A stretch of 40,885 nucleotides of DNA from a virus: the UHGV virus genome UHGV-0869933, one strand, 5' to 3'. Under the pieces are notes generated by a model. It did not search any database. It was not told the origin of the DNA and saw nothing but the letters and a program-made list of their open reading frames with translations. The translations under genes were made by a program, and so were the position numbers. This document shows, one piece after another, positions 1-7,730 of this stretch (its first letter is position 1; each line of letters starts with the position of its first letter).

Positions 1-88
1 TCTTTAGTCCTTCTGCACCCTGATTATTTCATCAGAAATTAATTATCACTCTGTTGTTATTCTGTACATCCCGGCAGGGTAAGTCTTG
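1..88. repeat. Left copy of an 88-bp perfect inverted repeat (partner at 740-827)
   Basis: Bases 1-88 are the exact reverse complement of 740-827, checked base by base; identity stops at 88/740. The window begins exactly at the repeat end, so the left boundary cannot be assessed. Confidence 0.9.
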
Positions 89-431
89 CTCTGCCACTAC
101 CTCCGGACACCTCCGGCAGCGTCGGGTCCGGCATATCACTCGCCGCTTCACGAGCAGACTTTTGTCGATGGCATTCGGTACAGAGCGTCCAGAGATTCGT
201 CTCCTCATTACCACCACCGAACTGAAGTGCAATTCGGTGATCGAGTTCACTGTCACAGAGGTCAACCACACGACCACAGAGACGGCACTGCCCGGCGTCC
301 CTGAGCCAGATATGACGCTTGAGGGAAACACGTGCACTGCCACTGACACGACGCTGTTCACCCTTCAGAATATTCACCCGTCGGGTATTCAGTGTTTTGA
401 TTCTGCTCTGGAGTGTACGAAGCTCAGCCAT
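57..431 (-). CDS. HNH endonuclease
   Basis: 124 aa with CxxC ... DH ... N ... CxxCH spacing typical of HNH nucleases; last 10 codons lie inside the left inverted repeat; HNH genes commonly sit next to cos/terminase in HK97-like and lambdoid phages. Confidence 0.7.
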   Translation of the reverse strand: MAELRTLQSRIKTLNTRRVNILKGEQRRVSGSARVSLKRHIWLRDAGQCRLCGRVVDLCDSELDHRIALQFGGGNEETNLWTLCTECHRQKSAREAASDMPDPTLPEVSGGSGRARLTLPGCTE

Positions 432-673: not shown

Positions 674-739
674 ACGTTCGGTTACAGGAGCAGGTACCCA
701 CTGTCCTCCAACAATATTTCATCTTCATATCCGACAGAA

Positions 740-827
740 CAAGACTTACCCTGCCGGGATGTACAGAATAACAACAGAGTGATAATTAATTTCTGATGAA
801 ATAATCAGGGTGCAGAAGGACTAAAGA
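740..827. repeat. Right copy of the 88-bp perfect inverted repeat
   Basis: Exact reverse complement of 1-88; overlaps the last 7 codons and stop of the 805-1146 gene. Confidence 0.9.
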
Positions 828-1146
828 TAAACGTTTTCTTCACGCCTTTACACGGCCTGTCCTTCTCAAATCGCCATTTTGCCATCGCCTTTACAACCTG
901 CTCATCAAACAGATGGTGCGGCTCTGAACGAATAAACTCAATTCGGGTGACAGTACCATCAGCACCAATATCAAACCTCACATCAACCCGTCCCTTTATA
1001 TAATTTGCCGCTGCATAGGCCGGATATTGTGGTAATGCCTTAACCAACTGTCGGGGCATATCTGTTTTATGTTGCGTACAGCCCATAACCAGAGAAGACA
1101 ACAAAATAATTAACGGAAGATTTCTTTTCATTTTCATTCCCCGCAC
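805..1146 (-). CDS. Lipoprotein with TonB C-terminal-like domain, at the bor position downstream of Rz
   Basis: N-terminal signal with lipobox-like LVMGC; C-terminal region (YPAYAAANYIKGRVDVRFDIGADGTVTRIEF ... AMAKWRF) resembles TonB_C; start may be the GTG at 1146 or the ATG at 1137. Confidence 0.6.
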   Translation of the reverse strand: MRGMKMKRNLPLIILLSSLVMGCTQHKTDMPRQLVKALPQYPAYAAANYIKGRVDVRFDIGADGTVTRIEFIRSEPHHLFDEQVVKAMAKWRFEKDRPCKGVKKTFIFSPSAP

Positions 1147-1147
1147 A

Positions 1148-1167
1148 GATAAGAATAAGTCTTATTC
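1148..1167. promoter_or_regulatory. Fur-box-like palindrome immediately 5' of the TonB-C lipoprotein gene
   Basis: GATAAGAATAAGTCTTATTC contains a perfect 8-bp inverted repeat (AGAATAAG/CTTATTCT) and resembles the GATAAT-hexamer Fur consensus; function is inferred only. Confidence 0.3.
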
Positions 1168-1469
1168 TAACAATGCCGCCCTGTCGGTCATCAATCCTCT
1201 GCTTAATGGCAACGACAATTATCCGACTTAAATCACAAATCAGACACATGACATAACAGGGCTTGCGAGGTAACACATCGTCCTGTTTCTTCCACCATCG
1301 CACCGGACTGGCGACTATGAGGGGACAACGCCGCGCTCCGTTAACGCGGTAAACCCCGGTGTGTATCGTTTTTGATTATCCCCGCACACTCGCGCAGAGG
1401 AGTCTCCCTGTCGGGCTGCGGTCTCTGTTAATGAGGGAATACAGCGACGATACGGCGCATCAGCAAAAC

Positions 1470-1937
1470 TTAGTTCAGGCACTGAGTGCGGATATAGTCC
1501 TGTGCCCCTTCCAGCTGCTTCTGCATTGTCATCAACCGTTCTCTGAGGATGAAATAATCCCGTTCAGCGGTGTCTGCCAGTCGGGGGCCGGTTGCATTAT
1601 CCACGCCGGAGGTGCCGGTGGCTTCACGCACTGTACCGGAGCAGGTGGCGTTGATCCGCAGGCGCTTACGACCAGCGGCAACATCAGCACGCAGAGTTTC
1701 ATTTTCAGCTCTCGCATCGGCTAATTCCCTCGAGTATCTGGCATCAAGTTCAGCGACATCACGCTGGCGTATCTGCATATCAGTAATTGTCGCGTTCGCC
1801 AGTTTCAGCTCACTGACTTTTTTATCGCGCTGCGCTTTGTAGGTGATGGCGTTATCGCGGTAATGATTCAGCCCCAGACTAAGCACACCACAGGCTACCA
1901 GCAGGACAATAATCACCACACACAGAACACGGTTCAT
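1470..1937 (-). CDS. Rz: Rz i-spanin
   Basis: From [17 protein letters not shown]: N-terminal TM then coiled-coil periplasmic domain closely matching lambda Rz ([16 protein letters not shown] ... TAERDYF ... MQKQLEG); the track ORF extends upstream of the real start. Confidence 0.9.
1532..1717 (-). CDS. Rz1: Rz1 o-spanin lipoprotein, embedded in Rz in the +1 frame
   Basis: [53 protein letters not shown] matches lambda Rz1 (lipobox, proline-rich); classic embedded architecture. Confidence 0.85.
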
Positions 1938-1938
1938 A

Positions 1939-2025
1939 TCACCACCAACGGATTGCCCAGACCAGAACAGCAATGGCCACAATACGAATGGCAAATGCCA
2001 TTGCCCGAATAAGTTCAGCACTCAT
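1939..2025 (-). CDS. Tiny hydrophobic ORF (28 aa), fourth of four between endolysin and Rz
   Basis: My translation: [28 protein letters not shown]; stop lies 1 nt before the Rz ATG; weak RBS; below the track length cut-off. Confidence 0.25.
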
Positions 2026-4171: not shown

Positions 4172-6028
4172 TTATGATGATGCTGGTGCATTTATCTCCA
4201 GCACCAGACTTTCTATCTCAACGCCATACGCTGCATTTTTGGTAATATCCGTCAGCGTCAGCGCATTCAGCCCCAGTGTCAGACTGTCTTTTATGACCTG
4301 GAATGCCGGGCCAGCCACTCCATTCAGTTTCGGAGTAACCGTGGCACTGCCGGCGGTGAACACCAGTTCCAGCGTCTGCCAGTCGTTACTGTAATTCCCG
4401 AACTCGCCCAACTTTGTGTTTCCGGCTTTCTTGTGATGCATCAGATTCAGTTTGCCGTCTGTGGTCTGGGTGAAGAACGACATCAGGAACGGGTTACCAG
4501 TCCCGGTCATCGCCACGACGTCAGGTAACGCTACATCGGTATACAGATAAATTCCCAGACCGAACTGGTTGTTGGTCAGTGCGCCTGACAGTCGAAACTT
4601 ACAGCTCAGTCTGCCACCCCGTGTCAGCAGGGAGACTGCGTCATCCACCGGATGCATCAGGGACCAGGTTTTATTGCTCTGCTTGGTAACCTTAAACACA
4701 CCATCTTCCAGCGCAACACTGCCGCCGGTGATGGTCCAGCCCTGCGCAGCAGCCTCTCCGGCTGTCGGCAGCAGGGAGACTGTACGAACGGATGTGTCAC
4801 CATCAGACGGCCCCGATGGCGTGTCGCCGCCGGGCGAGGGTTTAATCTCCGGTGCGGTACCGCTGATGAAGGCGCTGGTTCGACCAACTGCGTTCAGAAT
4901 AGCGGTTGCCAGGCGATCCGAAATAATGCCCCTGCGCGCCCATGAACTGAAATGTGTCGGACGATTTGACGATACCCAATTACCATTACTACGGGATTGC
5001 GCGCCGTAATAACCTGCATCAGCAATATCCGGGTCTTCTGCCGGTAAGTTGGTGGGCGTGTTGTTGCCGTTACCGTCGGTCATGAACGGCACAAAGAAAA
5101 CGTTGTCGCTCTCCCTGTTTTTGTACGCGCCGTAGACGGAGTCATACTGTGTGCCGTATGTGTTTTTCCAGTAATACGTCGTGTCGCCACAAATCCACGG
5201 TACAACTGCAGCACTGCCGCCATGGCACTGCGCGTTAAATCCGGAAAGGTCAGTACGGAACTGCTTCAGCATGGCCGTGAACAGGTCCGGTTGCTGTGCG
5301 TAGGTGGCAGCGCTCATGTCAAATTCGCCCTGCATCCAGCACACCGCCAGCAACACATTTTTCGGGTTCTTCTGTAATGCCGCTTTGGTGCGTGCGATCA
5401 GGTCCTGATATAACGGTTTACCCACACCCCAGCGTGCCGAATCCTGGCTGGCCCCCGTGTCCGCACTGAATGTCCCCTCCGCGCCCTGGGTGAATGCCGA
5501 ACCACCACGACAGCATGGTACCAGCAGGATCCCCGCGTTATTCGGGATATACGGAAGCAGTTTTTTGGCAATATGTAAGCCCTGGCCGACACAGCCGTAC
5601 TGCCCTTTGCTCAGGTCTGCCTTCGGATGATTCAGTGCGCTCATATCCTGAACATCATGCAGGCAGTGGTCTGCCGGAATGATGTCGTTAAATGCGCATG
5701 CTTTACCACCGGGAGTCACTGTGTTGCGACGGGCCAGTTGCTTAATGCGTGGGTGGGGCGCATCGTAAGAATCCGGAAGCGGAAGCCCTTCACCGTAAGC
5801 CATGGCATTGGATTGCCCGGCCAGTACGATGACGTAGTACCACTCCGGCTCAGTTGCACCACTGACGACCACATCACCTTCTGCTGCAATCGCCTGCATC
5901 AGGGTATAAGGGGTTATGGCCACCGGACTACCAAACGGCTGCCAGCCCTCTTTCAGTTTATGTGTCAGCTTTTCCGCAAGATCTGACGGCGACGCCGCCC
6001 TGACAACATCATAGTGTTTAAATGCCAT
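4172..6028 (-). CDS. nanS: Prophage-type sialate O-acetylesterase NanS-p (DUF1737 + SGNH/SASA esterase + C-terminal domain)
   Basis: N-terminal MAFKHYDVVRAASPSDLAEKL (DUF1737-like), GQSNA esterase motif, about 620 aa; sits between the stx-equivalent locus and the holin, as in Stx and related lambdoid phages. Confidence 0.8.
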   Translation of the reverse strand: MAFKHYDVVRAASPSDLAEKLTHKLKEGWQPFGSPVAITPYTLMQAIAAEGDVVVSGATEPEWYYVIVLAGQSNAMAYGEGLPLPDSYDAPHPRIKQLARRNTVTPGGKACAFNDIIPADHCLHDVQDMSALNHPKADLSKGQYGCVGQGLHIAKKLLPYIPNNAGILLVPCCRGGSAFTQGAEGTFSADTGASQDSARWGVGKPLYQDLIARTKAALQKNPKNVLLAVCWMQGEFDMSAATYAQQPDLFTAMLKQFRTDLSGFNAQCHGGSAAVVPWICGDTTYYWKNTYGTQYDSVYGAYKNRESDNVFFVPFMTDGNGNNTPTNLPAEDPDIADAGYYGAQSRSNGNWVSSNRPTHFSSWARRGIISDRLATAILNAVGRTSAFISGTAPEIKPSPGGDTPSGPSDGDTSVRTVSLLPTAGEAAAQGWTITGGSVALEDGVFKVTKQSNKTWSLMHPVDDAVSLLTRGGRLSCKFRLSGALTNNQFGLGIYLYTDVALPDVVAMTGTGNPFLMSFFTQTTDGKLNLMHHKKAGNTKLGEFGNYSNDWQTLELVFTAGSATVTPKLNGVAGPAFQVIKDSLTLGLNALTLTDITKNAAYGVEIESLVLEINAPASS

Positions 6029-6288
6029 GGTTCTTTCCACCATCTGAAAAATGATTCTTTAAAATACCTGACATGTAATACAGAAAAAACACAAAACCAT
6101 ACCTTAAATAAAAACCTCATCATCAAGCAGATATGCATGGATAAACTACAAGACGAGATATAAACCACCCTGCATTTAAATAAACAATAAACAACATCAG
6201 AAAAATAATTCTGCTCTATGGTTTACAATCAAAAATATCATTTATACTTTTCAGAACATCACCAGCAAGGCATAAACAAGGAAACTAA

Positions 6289-6659: not shown

Positions 6660-6868
6660 AGCCCCTCCGGAGAGGGGCTGGAGAGTGGCGCTATGTGCCA
6701 TTGCATGGTGCCGGGTGCCTCCCGGTGAATTCAGTACCAGCACCTGAATCCGCGATTATCCCATATACCTACTCGCTGATTACCCCTCCGCACAGGGGGA
6801 TTCACCATGCGAAATTTTTTAACAAACTTCCCGCCGGCCAGACAATAATCGCCAGCCTGAATTATGAG
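6660..6868. repeat. Copy A of a diverged roughly 210-bp non-coding element
   Basis: Shares with copy B the hairpin AGCCCCTCCGGAGAGGGGCT, GCATGGTGCC-N-CCTCCCGGT-AATTCAG, GGGGGATTCACCATGCGA and a CCAGACAAT-ATC tail. Confidence 0.7.
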
Positions 6869-7132
6869 CAACGTGGCATTTTACGGGAAAACTGTTTTCT
6901 GCAGTAAAAAGGCCCGCCGGAGCGAGCCTGGAAGGATAGCGGTCATGTGATGCCGGTTTCCCGGTAACTCAGCATCGGTATCTGAGTCAACGTTTTCTCT
7001 ACTGGGTCATTTCCGATACGTTCCGCCTTCCGGCAGACTTTCATCACGTCAGAAAATATAGCACCCTGAGTAACAGGACAGTACTCAGAATTCAGGAAAC
7101 TGTGACACATCCTGCACAGAAAAGCCCCTCCG

Positions 7133-7347
7133 GAGAGGGGCTGAAGTATAGCCTAATTTCTGTCTGTCGCATGGTGCCAGGGGCCTCCCGGTAAATTCAG
7201 CCTGTCTACTGAATTTGCATGTTCTCTGGATCATACACTTTGCCAGATGCCCCGCCGCTGAGGGGGATTCACCATGCGATGTAATTTTTAACAAATTCTC
7301 CGGCAGCCAGACAATCATCAAGCTGTGGAATTGTGAGGTATTTAAAA
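7133..7347. repeat. Copy B of the same diverged element
   Basis: Same block order and orientation as copy A with scattered substitutions and indels; no conserved ORF across the two copies. Confidence 0.7.
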
Positions 7348-7570: not shown

Positions 7571-7647
7571 TGGACCGCCATCGGGGACTTGAACCCCGCG
7601 CAGCCAGCTTCGAAGGCTGGCGCTCTATCCCGATGAGCTAATGGCGG
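7571..7647 (-). tRNA. tRNA-Arg (anticodon UCG)
   Basis: Hand-folded cloverleaf: 7-bp acceptor CCGCCAT/ATGGCGG, D-arm GCTC...GAGC, anticodon loop CTTCGAA, T-arm CGGGG-TTCAAGT-CCCCG, 3' CCA encoded. Confidence 0.8.
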
Positions 7648-7654
7648 TATGTGA

Positions 7655-7730
7655 TGGTGGCCCTTGCTGGATTTGAACCAGCGACCTGGCGATTATGAGT
7701 CGCTCGCTCTCACCACTGAGCTAAAGGGCC
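7655..7730 (-). tRNA. tRNA-Ile2/Met type (anticodon CAU), ileZ-like
   Basis: GGCCCTT-TA-GCTCAGTGGTGAGAGC-G-AGCGA-CTCATAA-TCGCC-AGGTC-GCTGG-TTCAAAT-CCAGC-AAGGGCC-A-CCA; resembles E. coli ileX and the phage ileZ. Confidence 0.8.

What the first reader, a model, noticed from the sequence alone, without database searches (positions are those of the whole stretch)
805..1167. TonB C-terminal-domain lipoprotein at the bor position, preceded by a Fur-box-like palindrome
Directly downstream of Rz, where lambda carries the bor lipoprotein gene, this phage encodes a lipoprotein whose mature part resembles the C-terminal domain of TonB. Just 5' of its start is the sequence GATAAGAATAAGTCTTATTC, which resembles a Fur box. 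A secreted TonB-C mimic could compete for TonB boxes of outer-membrane receptors, plausibly giving iron-responsive superinfection exclusion against TonB-dependent phages or colicins, or altering iron uptake.
Basis: inference. Interest (0 to 1): 0.6.

Follow-up and report, generated by a model that had tools for sequence, protein, structure and literature searches.

The report
Iron-regulated TonB-domain lipoprotein phage moron
This temperate E. coli phage carries a small add-on gene for an outer-membrane lipoprotein that copies the receptor-binding end of TonB; relatives in other bacteria sit behind strong iron-repressor (Fur) sites, so it may block TonB-dependent phages and toxins when iron is scarce, though this is untested.

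Summary
Window 805-1131 (minus strand) encodes a 108-aa lipoprotein (lipobox LVMGC, Thr at +2). Its mature part matches E. coli TonB residues 153-231 without gaps, and the structural model fits TonB as seen bound to BtuB and FhuA (rmsd 1.0-1.2 Å). All seven functionally important TonB residues are kept.

The gene lies in a ~604-bp, AT-rich cassette (684-1287) that is absent from a closely related phage, so it is a moron between the lysis genes and the terminase. It is on the same strand as Rz and sits beside bor in phage 21, not in place of it.

The "Fur box" (1148-1166) scores 13/19 here, which is borderline. At the same distance from the start codon, relatives in Salmonella, Klebsiella/Raoultella and Serratia carry 14-17/19 Fur boxes. 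These relatives are both prophage-borne and chromosomal. Fur control is therefore ancestral to the family. It is weakened in this allele and lost in the phage-21 allele.

The most likely function is an outer-membrane-tethered TonB decoy that occupies Ton boxes; this is inferred, not shown. Databases call the protein "TonB family protein", and PHROGs mislabels it "Rz-like spanin". I found no functional study.

The parts
805..1131 (-). Gene for the 108-aa TonB C-terminal-domain lipoprotein (stop codon 805-807; ATG at 1131-1129)
   Evidence: ORF list. RefSeq 'TonB family protein' of identical length at this place in L001. Pfam TonB_C E=9e-15. dN/dS=0.11 against the phage-21-type allele.
1078..1131 (-). 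Lipoprotein signal peptide MKRNLPLIILLSSLVMG plus the lipid-modified Cys18 (codon 1080-1078); residues +2/+3 are Thr-Gln, with no Asp, so outer-membrane sorting is predicted
   Evidence: Lipobox rule met. 13 of 15 family members have a lipobox, and none of these has Asp at +2.
820..1062 (-). TonB C-terminal domain (aa 24-104), equivalent to E. coli TonB ~151-231, including the beta3 strand (aa 94-103) that pairs with Ton boxes in TonB
   Evidence: phmmer against PDB gives a gap-free match, E~1e-15. 38% identity over 79 aa, with Y163/F180/G186/F202/W213/Y215/F230 equivalents conserved. AF2 model pLDDT 86.8. Foldseek: 2gsk_B rmsd 1.0 Å, 2grx_C rmsd 1.2 Å.
1148..1168 (.). Fur-box-like element (19-mer 1148-1166, 13/19) containing the perfect 8-1-8 palindrome AGAATAAG-N-CTTATTCT (1152-1168); it occupies -35..-17 relative to the ATG
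   Evidence: Canonical Fur boxes occupy the same position (-34..-16) in Salmonella, Klebsiella and Raoultella homologues. It is altered in only 1 of 20 upstream haplotypes.
1164..1191 (-). Candidate sigma-70 promoter: -35 ATGACC (1191-1186), 16-nt spacer, TG-extended -10 TAGAAT (1169-1164). The palindrome overlaps the -10 element and the expected transcription start
   Evidence: Consensus scan, 9/12 matches with TG; not significant alone (2 found, 2.2 expected in 1.6 kb). TGTYAGAAT is kept in the clade B allele.
1138..1142 (-). Shine-Dalgarno-like GGGGA, 6 nt before ATG 1131
   Evidence: Read from the sequence.
684..1287 (-). The moron cassette (~604 bp; edges uncertain by 3 nt because GTT is shared at both ends): gene, ~156 nt upstream and ~120 nt downstream
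   Evidence: Absent from phage vB_EcoS-783R2, whose sequence joins window 683 directly to 1288. GC 42.7% against 53-55% in the flanking genes. Upstream haplotypes diverge completely beyond about -146.
736..752 (.). Weak second copy of the palindrome (AGAACAAGACTTACCCT, 3 mismatches), 53-69 nt after the stop codon and inside the cassette; meaning unknown
   Evidence: 0.04 matches expected in the whole window.
1470..1940 (-). Context: Rz i-spanin, with the Rz1 o-spanin embedded at 1532-1717. The lysis cassette is complete without the TonB-domain gene
   Evidence: Pfam Phage_lysis E=7.7e-50. Rz1 ORF with lipobox VSAC and a proline-rich tail.

Best explanation
A moron cassette sits between the lysis genes and the packaging genes of a lambdoid (Stx1-phage-like) temperate phage. 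[quoted passage not shown] Shown here: (a) the protein has a lipoprotein signal peptide; (b) a tether of only about 7 residues precedes a complete TonB C-terminal domain; (c) that domain keeps every residue known to matter for TonB function; (d) the gene is under purifying selection; (e) it is a discrete insertion; (f) most branches of its family, prophage-borne and chromosomal, carry a canonical Fur box over the promoter at a fixed distance from the start codon. [quoted passage not shown] There its exposed beta3 edge binds the Ton boxes of TonB-dependent transporters, or of incoming group B colicins, by beta-augmentation. It has no ExbBD-coupled anchor, so it transmits no force. It therefore competes with TonB and blunts TonB-dependent entry of phages (T1/phi80 type), colicins, microcins and sideromycins. 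Ancestrally this happens when Fur derepresses the receptors. In this allele the operator is degenerate, so expression may be only weakly iron-responsive. The gene is also co-directional with the late operon and should be transcribed during lytic growth.
For: Identity: Pfam and TIGRFAM scores above their cut-offs. A gap-free match to solved TonB C-terminal domains. A confident model that superposes on TonB from the BtuB and FhuA complexes at 1.0-1.2 Å. The seven residues named as functionally important (bioRxiv 10.1101/2021.12.08.471779) are conserved family-wide. The domain is basic like TonB, pI 9.8 against 10.7. Lipoprotein. Selection: dN/dS 0.11. Moron. The gene occupies the same post-lysis slot in phages with four different endolysin or terminase types. 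Fur: homologues score 14-17/19 and 14-24 bits, and are the best or nearly the only match in their own 8-10 kb locus. K-12 control promoters score 12-16/19. Mechanistic precedent: the Ton box pairs with TonB beta3 (PMC11658791), and over-expressed periplasmic TonB inhibits TonB-dependent transporter uptake (Howard 2001 via PMC9841981). Phage outer-membrane lipoproteins that act on FhuA from the periplasmic side already exist (Llp, bioRxiv 10.64898/2026.03.26.714494).
Against: There is no experimental or expression data, and I found no paper on this protein. A TonB competitor induced during iron starvation would impair iron uptake just when it is needed. Chromosomal, non-phage homologues in Serratia and Raoultella are harder to explain as anti-phage devices. 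TonB Q160 and R166, which are implicated in Ton-box and FhuA contacts (my recollection, not checked here), are not conserved. The carrier phage's J tip is lambda/VT1-Sakai-like and gives no sign that it uses a TonB-dependent receptor, so self-exclusion is not indicated. The family is absent from PADLOC. In this allele the Fur-like site scores only at the level of the weakest known site, and the phage-21 allele has lost it.
Confidence: 0.45

Rival explanations
1. It is a positive accessory factor for iron acquisition. In this reading, an iron-starvation-induced, outer-membrane-tethered TonB-like domain helps TonB-dependent uptake. It could pre-organise transporters, recruit TonB's own C-terminal domain to the outer membrane, or bind a substrate directly as the TonB homologue FusB does. 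The phage would carry it as a fitness gene for its lysogen.
For: Its Fur regulation resembles that of uptake genes. Chromosomal homologues with strong Fur boxes lie in core-genome neighbourhoods of Serratia and Raoultella. The FusB C-terminal domain, a structural neighbour, binds ferredoxin cargo (7zc8/9hi3). TonB C-terminal domains crystallise as dimers (1u07/1ihr entries).
Against: No energy coupling is possible without the N-terminal anchor. The homologous TonB periplasmic fragment is inhibitory, not stimulatory. No transporter or siderophore gene is linked to it in any locus examined.
Confidence: 0.2
2. It is an envelope or virulence lipoprotein analogous to Bor/Iss. The TonB-like fold would serve only as a scaffold that binds peptidoglycan or another envelope partner and changes serum resistance or outer-membrane stability, without acting on TonB-dependent transporters.
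For: It occupies the same moron hot spot as bor and sits next to it in phage 21. It is an outer-membrane lipoprotein of similar size.
Against: It has no sequence relation to Bor; only TonB families hit. The specific conservation of all TonB function-critical aromatic residues and the beta3 pattern is not expected for a mere scaffold. The Fur box ties it to iron biology.
Confidence: 0.1
3. It is a lysis accessory or spanin-like protein, as the PHROGs label 'Rz-like spanin' (phrog_1267) suggests. It would be made from the late transcript and help disrupt the outer membrane.
For: PHROGs match E=1.7e-42 to a family filed under lysis. It is located just after Rz and is co-directional with the late operon.
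Against: The window already has a complete Rz/Rz1 pair. The protein is a globular TonB domain, not a proline-rich o-spanin. Homologues occur in chromosomes with no phage genes nearby. It has its own Fur-box promoter. A related phage with the same lysis cassette lacks it.
Confidence: 0.03
4. The gene is functional, but the palindrome in this allele is not a Fur operator. It would be either a decayed relic, leaving the gene constitutive or expressed only late, or an operator retuned for another dimeric regulator.
For: It scores only 13/19 and 10.5 bits. All three hexamers read nATAAG instead of GATAAT. The dyad centre (1160) is 3 nt from the centre of the best Fur alignment (1157), and the palindrome-centred alignment gives only 10-11/19. 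Clade B has lost the right half altogether.
Against: It sits where homologues have canonical Fur boxes and keeps perfect dyad symmetry over the -10 element. It scores within the range of real K-12 sites such as tonB and exbB. No second copy lies in the phage's immunity region, so it is not a CI/Cro operator.
Confidence: 0.45

Closest known systems
TonB (E. coli P02929), C-terminal domain residues ~150-239
   Same: Same fold and length, 38% identity without gaps. The YP motif, G186 and all aromatic residues needed for function are kept, and the beta3 edge that pairs with Ton boxes is present. The tonB gene is itself in the Fur regulon; its upstream region served as one of my K-12 control sites.
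   Different: It has no N-terminal transmembrane anchor or ExbBD-coupling motif and no proline-rich spacer. Instead it has a lipoprotein signal and a ~7-residue tether, so it is attached to the opposite membrane and cannot transduce energy. It fails all TonB equivalog cut-offs.
Engineered periplasmic TonB fragments (Howard, Herrmann, Stratilo & Braun 2001, J Bacteriol 183:5885)
   Same: These are free TonB C-terminal portions in the periplasm that compete with native TonB and inhibit FecA/FhuA transport, as summarised in PMC9841981. This is the proposed mode of action.
   Different: Those fragments are laboratory constructs, soluble and over-expressed. This one is natural, lipid-anchored, phage-borne and (in the family) Fur-controlled. 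I could not read the original paper.
Llp (phage T5) and Cor (phi80, N15, HK022) superinfection-exclusion lipoproteins
   Same: They are small phage-encoded lipoproteins of the inner leaflet of the outer membrane that act on a TonB-dependent transporter (FhuA) from the periplasmic side.
   Different: They are unrelated in sequence and fold. Llp works allosterically on one receptor and blocks binding of its own phage. A TonB-domain decoy would act on the shared Ton box of many receptors and only on TonB-dependent steps.
Bor (lambda) / Iss lipoprotein moron
   Same: A lipoprotein moron in the Rz-to-cos interval of lambdoid phages, presumably expressed from its own promoter in lysogens.
   Different: A different family, on the opposite strand in lambda and phage 21, and it co-occurs with this gene rather than alternating with it. 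No Fur box is known for it (my knowledge).
FusB (Pectobacterium TonB homologue)
   Same: A close structural neighbour (7zc8, 9hi3). It shows that a TonB C-terminal domain can acquire an extra binding function.
   Different: FusB is a full-length, inner-membrane-anchored energy transducer.

Membership tests
TonB_C domain family (Pfam PF03544 / TIGR01352) | Profile score above the curated cut-off | tested here: met
   PF03544 55.3 bits against 24.6; TIGR01352 55.2 bits against 27.1.
TonB_C domain family (Pfam PF03544 / TIGR01352) | TonB C-terminal-domain fold: helices packed against a three-stranded sheet with an exposed beta3 edge | tested here: met
   AF2 model pLDDT 86.8, above 96 across the domain. 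Foldseek TM 0.88-0.92 (normalised to target) and rmsd 1.0-1.4 Å to 1u07, 2gsk_B and 2grx_C.
TonB_C domain family (Pfam PF03544 / TIGR01352) | Conservation of the functionally important residues Y163, F180, G186, F202, W213, Y215, F230 | tested here: met
   Window residues Y36, F53, G59, F75, W86, F88 (Y to F) and F103. These columns are invariant or show only aromatic swaps (F/Y), apart from one Met at the F230 column, across the 15 family members.
TonB energy transducer proper (NCBIfam PRK10819 equivalogs) | N-terminal transmembrane anchor coupling to ExbB/ExbD, plus a proline-rich periplasmic spacer | tested here: not met
   The protein is 108 aa. Its N-terminus is a cleavable lipoprotein signal and there is no spacer. 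Equivalog scores are 49-74 bits against cut-offs of 265-448.
Bacterial lipoproteins (PROSITE PS51257-type signal) | Basic n-region, uncharged h-region, and a lipobox ending in Cys within the first ~35 residues | tested here: met
   K2 and R3; IILLSSLVMGC matches the rule. 13 of 15 family members have a lipobox.
Bacterial lipoproteins (PROSITE PS51257-type signal) | Actual acylation and outer-membrane sorting | not testable with these tools
   Only predicted, from the absence of Asp at +2.
Phage moron (Hendrix/Juhala sense) | A discrete extra gene present between two genes that are adjacent in a related phage | tested here: met
   Window 684-1287 is absent from vB_EcoS-783R2, which has identical flanks.
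Phage moron (Hendrix/Juhala sense) | Own promoter and terminator; deviant base composition | tested here: inconclusive
   A TG-extended -10 promoter candidate sits at the right place, but consensus hits are at chance frequency. No intrinsic terminator was found downstream. GC is 42.7% against 53-55% in the flanks.
Fur regulon (Fur-box operator) | A match to the 19-bp Fur box overlapping the promoter, in this window | tested here: inconclusive
   13/19 and 10.5 bits. The K-12 control sites score 12-16/19 and 10.1-17.7 bits. Chance is about 0.04-0.05 for the upstream region.
Fur regulon (Fur-box operator) | The same, in homologues of the gene | tested here: met
   12 of the 15 lineages displayed score 13-17/19 at -65..-10, including this window and one Klebsiella prophage at 13/19. 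In most of these lineages the site is the top hit in its own locus. The exceptions are E. coli clade B and Erwinia.
Fur regulon (Fur-box operator) | Fur binding and iron-dependent repression | not testable with these tools
   Needs EMSA, FURTA or reporter assays.
Spanins (PHROGs label 'Rz-like spanin') | An o-spanin is a short proline-rich outer-membrane lipoprotein paired with or embedded in an i-spanin gene and needed for lysis | tested here: not met
   A separate Rz/Rz1 pair is present. The protein has a globular TonB fold. Chromosomal homologues lie outside phages.
Bor/Iss lipoproteins | Sequence membership | tested here: not met
   The Pfam scan at E<=1 returns only TonB_C and TonB_2. A true bor lies next to the clade B allele.
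Known anti-phage defence systems (PADLOC-DB) | A match to any model | tested here: not met
   No hit for three family members.

The most novel reading that the evidence does not exclude
Small outer-membrane-tethered TonB C-terminal-domain lipoproteins form an unrecognised, Fur-controlled class of 'Ton-box decoys'. They are spread by temperate phages, including classical phage 21 and Stx1 phages, and are also fixed in some enterobacterial chromosomes. When iron starvation forces the cell to display many TonB-dependent receptors, they would give broad tolerance to TonB-dependent phages, group B colicins, microcins and sideromycin antibiotics.
Probability: 0.3. Interest if true: 0.8.

Novelty: new variant of a known kind. 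Interest (0 to 1): 0.6.

Why it matters
If the decoy model is right, lysogeny by common E. coli, Salmonella and Klebsiella prophages would modulate every TonB-dependent process at once. These prophages are frequent: 414 of 5,426 complete E. coli genomes carry this allele's cassette. The affected processes include siderophore and B12 uptake, and killing by T1/phi80-like phages, colicins B/D/Ia/M and microcins. Trojan-horse sideromycin drugs, which enter through TonB-dependent transporters, would be affected as well. The effect would appear under the iron-limited conditions of infection. That would be a receptor-independent, broad-spectrum form of exclusion, different from Llp and Cor. It is relevant to phage therapy, to microcin-based competition in the inflamed gut and to siderophore-antibiotic resistance. 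It would also supply a natural inhibitor for probing the TonB-transporter interaction. The hypothesis is directly testable with standard strains, because phage 21 carries an allele.

Tried and rejected
1. The 93-nt inverted repeat (1-93 against 735-827) first looked like the ends of a mobile or invertible element cutting into the gene's 3' end. The fold-back junction is absent from all 224 fetched loci. Of these, 37 continue into the cos/terminase side instead, and the C-terminal FIFSPSAP is conserved in homologues. I treat the repeat as a window or contig-end artefact.

2. The idea that the 17-bp palindrome is a CI/Cro-type phage operator is rejected. It has no other good copy in the window, and none in the immunity region.

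3. The 'truncated domain' worry arose because Pfam aligned only positions 3-60 of 79. It is rejected because phmmer against PDB and the model cover the whole domain, including beta3.

4. The 'pseudogene / TonB fragment' idea, as some records annotate it, is rejected by dN/dS 0.11 and family-wide conservation.

5. The first AF2 run, on near-identical sequences, gave pLDDT 59.8 and was not used.

6. The search for related loci with the 15-sequence alignment failed because no conserved stretch was found. A 7-sequence alignment worked.

None of those aimed at this protein found a study of it; instead located the Howard et al. 2001 precedent, whose full text is not held.

8. BFVD structure search: no viral match at E<=0.001. 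PADLOC: no hit.

9. I looked for a cor-like gene and a TonB-dependent receptor specificity in the carrier phage's tail region. The tail shows lambda-like J, Lom and Stf, with nothing pointing to FhuA.
Full report
**What is at the coordinates**

The finding spans a minus-strand ORF, 805..1131, plus 36 nt of its 5' flank. RefSeq annotates the identical 108-aa product in E. coli chromosomes as 'TonB family protein' (WP_000828072.1). The preferred start is ATG 1131, which lies 6 nt after a GGGGA Shine-Dalgarno sequence. ATG 1137 and GTG 1146 are in-frame alternatives.

The N-terminus, MKRNLPLIILLSSLVMGC, fits the lipoprotein rule. Residue +2 is Thr. None of the 13 family members with a lipobox has Asp at +2, so outer-membrane sorting is predicted. 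That sorting is an inference from the Lol rule.

**The TonB domain**

- Pfam TonB_C scores 55.3 bits against a cut-off of 24.6.
- TIGR01352 scores 55.2 bits against 27.1.
- phmmer against PDB sequences aligns residues 24-104 without any gap to E. coli TonB ~151-231, E~1e-15 (1u07, 1xx3, 2gsk_B, 2grx_C). Identity is 38% over 79 residues.
- An AlphaFold model built on near-identical sequences was poor (pLDDT 59.8). With a diverse family alignment it reached pLDDT 86.8, above 96 across the domain.
- Foldseek places the model on TonB as seen in the BtuB complex (rmsd 1.0 Å) and the FhuA complex (rmsd 1.2 Å).
- The seven TonB residues reported as functionally important are Y163, F180, G186, F202, W213, Y215 and F230 (bioRxiv 10.1101/2021.12.08.471779). 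Here they are Y36, F53, G59, F75, W86, F88 and F103, and they are conserved across the family.
- Only about seven residues separate the lipidated Cys from the first TonB-homologous residue. The domain would therefore sit against the inner face of the outer membrane (inference).
- The protein lacks TonB's membrane anchor and proline-rich spacer, and it fails all TonB equivalog cut-offs. It is a TonB_C-domain protein, not a TonB.

**It is a real gene and a moron**

dN/dS against the 71%-identical phage-21-type allele is 0.11. Phage vB_EcoS-783R2 has the same HNH, DUF3950 and Rz flanks, but it joins window 683 directly to 1288. The gene therefore lies in a ~604-bp cassette, 684-1287. The cassette has 42.7% GC, against 53-55% in the neighbouring genes. 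Among 70 near-identical loci, the upstream haplotypes diverge completely beyond about -146, which marks the same cassette edge.

The gene order in an E. coli prophage is terL, terS, HNH, DUF3950 (opposite strand), this gene, Rz/Rz1, lysozyme, holin. The gene is on the same strand as Rz, so late-operon read-through should also transcribe it (inference). Lambda's bor is antisense to Rz. In phage 21 and in locus L107, a true bor lies immediately beside the clade B allele. The 'bor position' should therefore be read as 'the same moron hot spot', not as a replacement of bor.

**Distribution**

- 414 of 5,426 complete E. coli genomes contain at least 80% of window 700-1500.
- 218 IMG/VR stretches encode a relative.
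- Only 15 of 50,697 deposited phage genomes do. These include Stx1a phages, JLK-2012, ev017 and classical phage 21.
- Annotations range from 'protein TonB' and 'TonB fragment' to 'partial tonB-like membrane protein encoded within prophage CP-933N'.
- PHROGs files the family (phrog_1267) as 'Rz-like spanin'. This appears to be a positional mislabel, because the window has its own Rz and embedded Rz1.
- A full HMMER scan found small lipoprotein relatives at 32-51% identity. They belong to Salmonella, Klebsiella, Gibbsiella, Rahnella and Erwinia/Pantoea.
- In Salmonella, Klebsiella and an unassigned group of viral contigs (lipobox LNAC), the gene again follows the lysis cassette and precedes the terminase. 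The endolysins differ (GH19-like, T4-type, GH108) and so do the terminases.
- In Serratia grimesii the gene sits between ycgN and dsbB-nhaB. In Raoultella it sits among ordinary chromosomal genes. The family is therefore not exclusively viral.

**The Fur box**

GATAAGAATAAGTCTTATTC is at 1148-1167. It matches GATAATGATAATCATTATC at 13 of 19 positions. As positive controls I took nine Fur-regulated K-12 promoter regions (fepA-fes, fepD-entS, fepB-entC, fhuA, tonB, cirA, fecA, fecI, exbB). Their best matches are 12-16/19. In the whole window, 15 of 81,734 positions reach 13, one reaches 14 and none reaches 15.

A weight matrix built from the controls gives the candidate 10.5 bits. Leave-one-out scores of the controls are 10.1-17.7 bits, and 13 window positions score as high as the candidate. 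Taken alone, the site is borderline.

The site contains a perfect 8-1-8 palindrome (1152-1168). This overlaps a TG-extended -10 candidate, TAGAAT 1169-1164, whose -35 is ATGACC. The palindrome's centre is 3 nt away from the centre of the best Fur alignment.

The comparative result is decisive for the family. Upstream sites in the homologues, measured against their start codons, are:

- Salmonella alleles: AGTATTGATAATTATTATC and AGTATTGATAATCATTATC (15-16/19), at -34..-16.
- Chromosomal Raoultella and Klebsiella alleles: 15-16/19, within -35..-10.
- Klebsiella and Raoultella prophage alleles: 13-14/19, at -37..-19.
- The viral contigs with lipobox LNAC: 16/19, at about -65.
- Serratia: GGTAATGAAAATCATTATC (17/19), at about -64.

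These score 14-24 bits, except one Klebsiella prophage allele at 5.3 bits. They are usually the single best match in their own 8-10 kb locus. The window's element occupies -35..-17, the same slot as in Salmonella and Raoultella.

E. coli clade B (phage 21) keeps only the left part (TGTCAGAATAAGAC) and scores 10-11/19. One Erwinia allele has none. I conclude that Fur control is ancestral to this family and that the element in this window is its diverged descendant. Whether Fur still binds it cannot be decided computationally. The palindrome is not a phage-repressor operator, since no comparable copy exists elsewhere in the window. The only other match is a 3-mismatch copy at 736-752, inside the cassette, which remains unexplained.

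**How it probably works**

In the FhuA-TonB and BtuB-TonB complexes, the transporter's Ton box adds a strand to TonB beta3 (PMC11658791). Over-produced periplasmic TonB inhibits TonB-dependent transport (Howard et al. 2001, as cited in PMC9841981; the original is not held). Phage lipoproteins that act on FhuA from the periplasmic face are established (Llp).

A lipid-anchored TonB C-terminal domain with no energy coupling is therefore most simply a competitor for Ton boxes at the outer membrane. Ancestrally it would be switched on together with the receptors. This mechanism is inferred. The main objections are:

- the cost to iron uptake;
- the existence of chromosomal homologues;
- the non-conservation of Q160 and R166;
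- the lambda/VT1-Sakai-like J tip, which gives no sign that the carrier phage itself uses a TonB-dependent receptor.

The rivals are listed with their tests: an uptake-promoting accessory factor, a Bor-like envelope protein, and a lysis accessory.

**Novelty**

The gene is annotated in databases, but none of the searches aimed at it found a functional study. It is absent from PADLOC and has no structural counterpart in BFVD. The lipoprotein-plus-TonB-domain architecture, its moron status across several phage types and the conserved Fur box appear undescribed. I rate it a new variant of a known kind, namely phage outer-membrane lipoproteins that target TonB-dependent transporters, and moderately to highly interesting.

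Noticed in passing
window 1-93 and 735-827: Window bases 1-88 are the reverse complement of 740-827 (93-nt inverted repeat, 99%). The junction at 88/89 occurs in none of 224 related loci. 37 of them continue into the cos/terminase side instead. This is probably a fold-back artefact at the contig or window end, not a real inverted repeat.
   Followed up: yes
window 805-1131; PHROGs phrog_1267: PHROGs labels this family 'Rz-like spanin' (category lysis). That appears to be a mislabel by gene position, and PHROGs-based annotation would carry it over to phage genomes.
   Followed up: partly
window 736-752: A 3-mismatch copy of the upstream palindrome (AGAACAAGACTTACCCT) lies 53-69 nt downstream of the stop codon, inside the cassette, and coincides with the inner end of the artefactual repeat arm. 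Only 0.04 such matches are expected in the whole window. Unexplained.
   Followed up: partly
L223 (phage 21, OL657228.1) 2501-2827; L107 3227-4327: Classical lambdoid phage 21 carries the 71%-identical clade B allele between bor and cosQ. This allele has lost the right half of the Fur-like palindrome. It offers a ready experimental system.
   Followed up: partly
L011 4992-5318 (Serratia grimesii); L003, L007, L008 (Raoultella/Klebsiella): Chromosomal, non-prophage homologues with the strongest Fur boxes (15-17/19) lie in core-genome neighbourhoods, for example between ycgN and dsbB-nhaB in Serratia. The phage genes may derive from such host genes.
   Followed up: partly
window 31226-34698 and 35042-37073: The central tail fibre gene J is split into two ORFs (789 aa and 368 aa, overlapping by 4 nt), and the neighbouring minor tail genes look fused or fragmented. 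This could be sequencing frameshifts or a decaying prophage. The J C-terminus is 100% identical to that of VT1-Sakai.
   Followed up: no
window 6660-6679, 7123-7142, 7571-7730: Two identical GC-rich hairpins (AGCCCCTCCGGAGAGGGGCT) and a tRNA-Arg(tcg)/tRNA-Met pair lie upstream of the 623-aa ORF (4172-6043) that corresponds by position to the SASA-family esterase annotated in L001. This is the region where Stx phages carry their toxin genes. I did not check whether stx is present.
   Followed up: no
window 57-431 and 473-673: An HNH endonuclease (minus strand) and a DUF3950/YlcI-YnfO protein (plus strand) are divergently arranged next to the cassette. The DUF3950 gene converges on the TonB-domain gene, and no recognisable terminator lies between them.
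   Followed up: no
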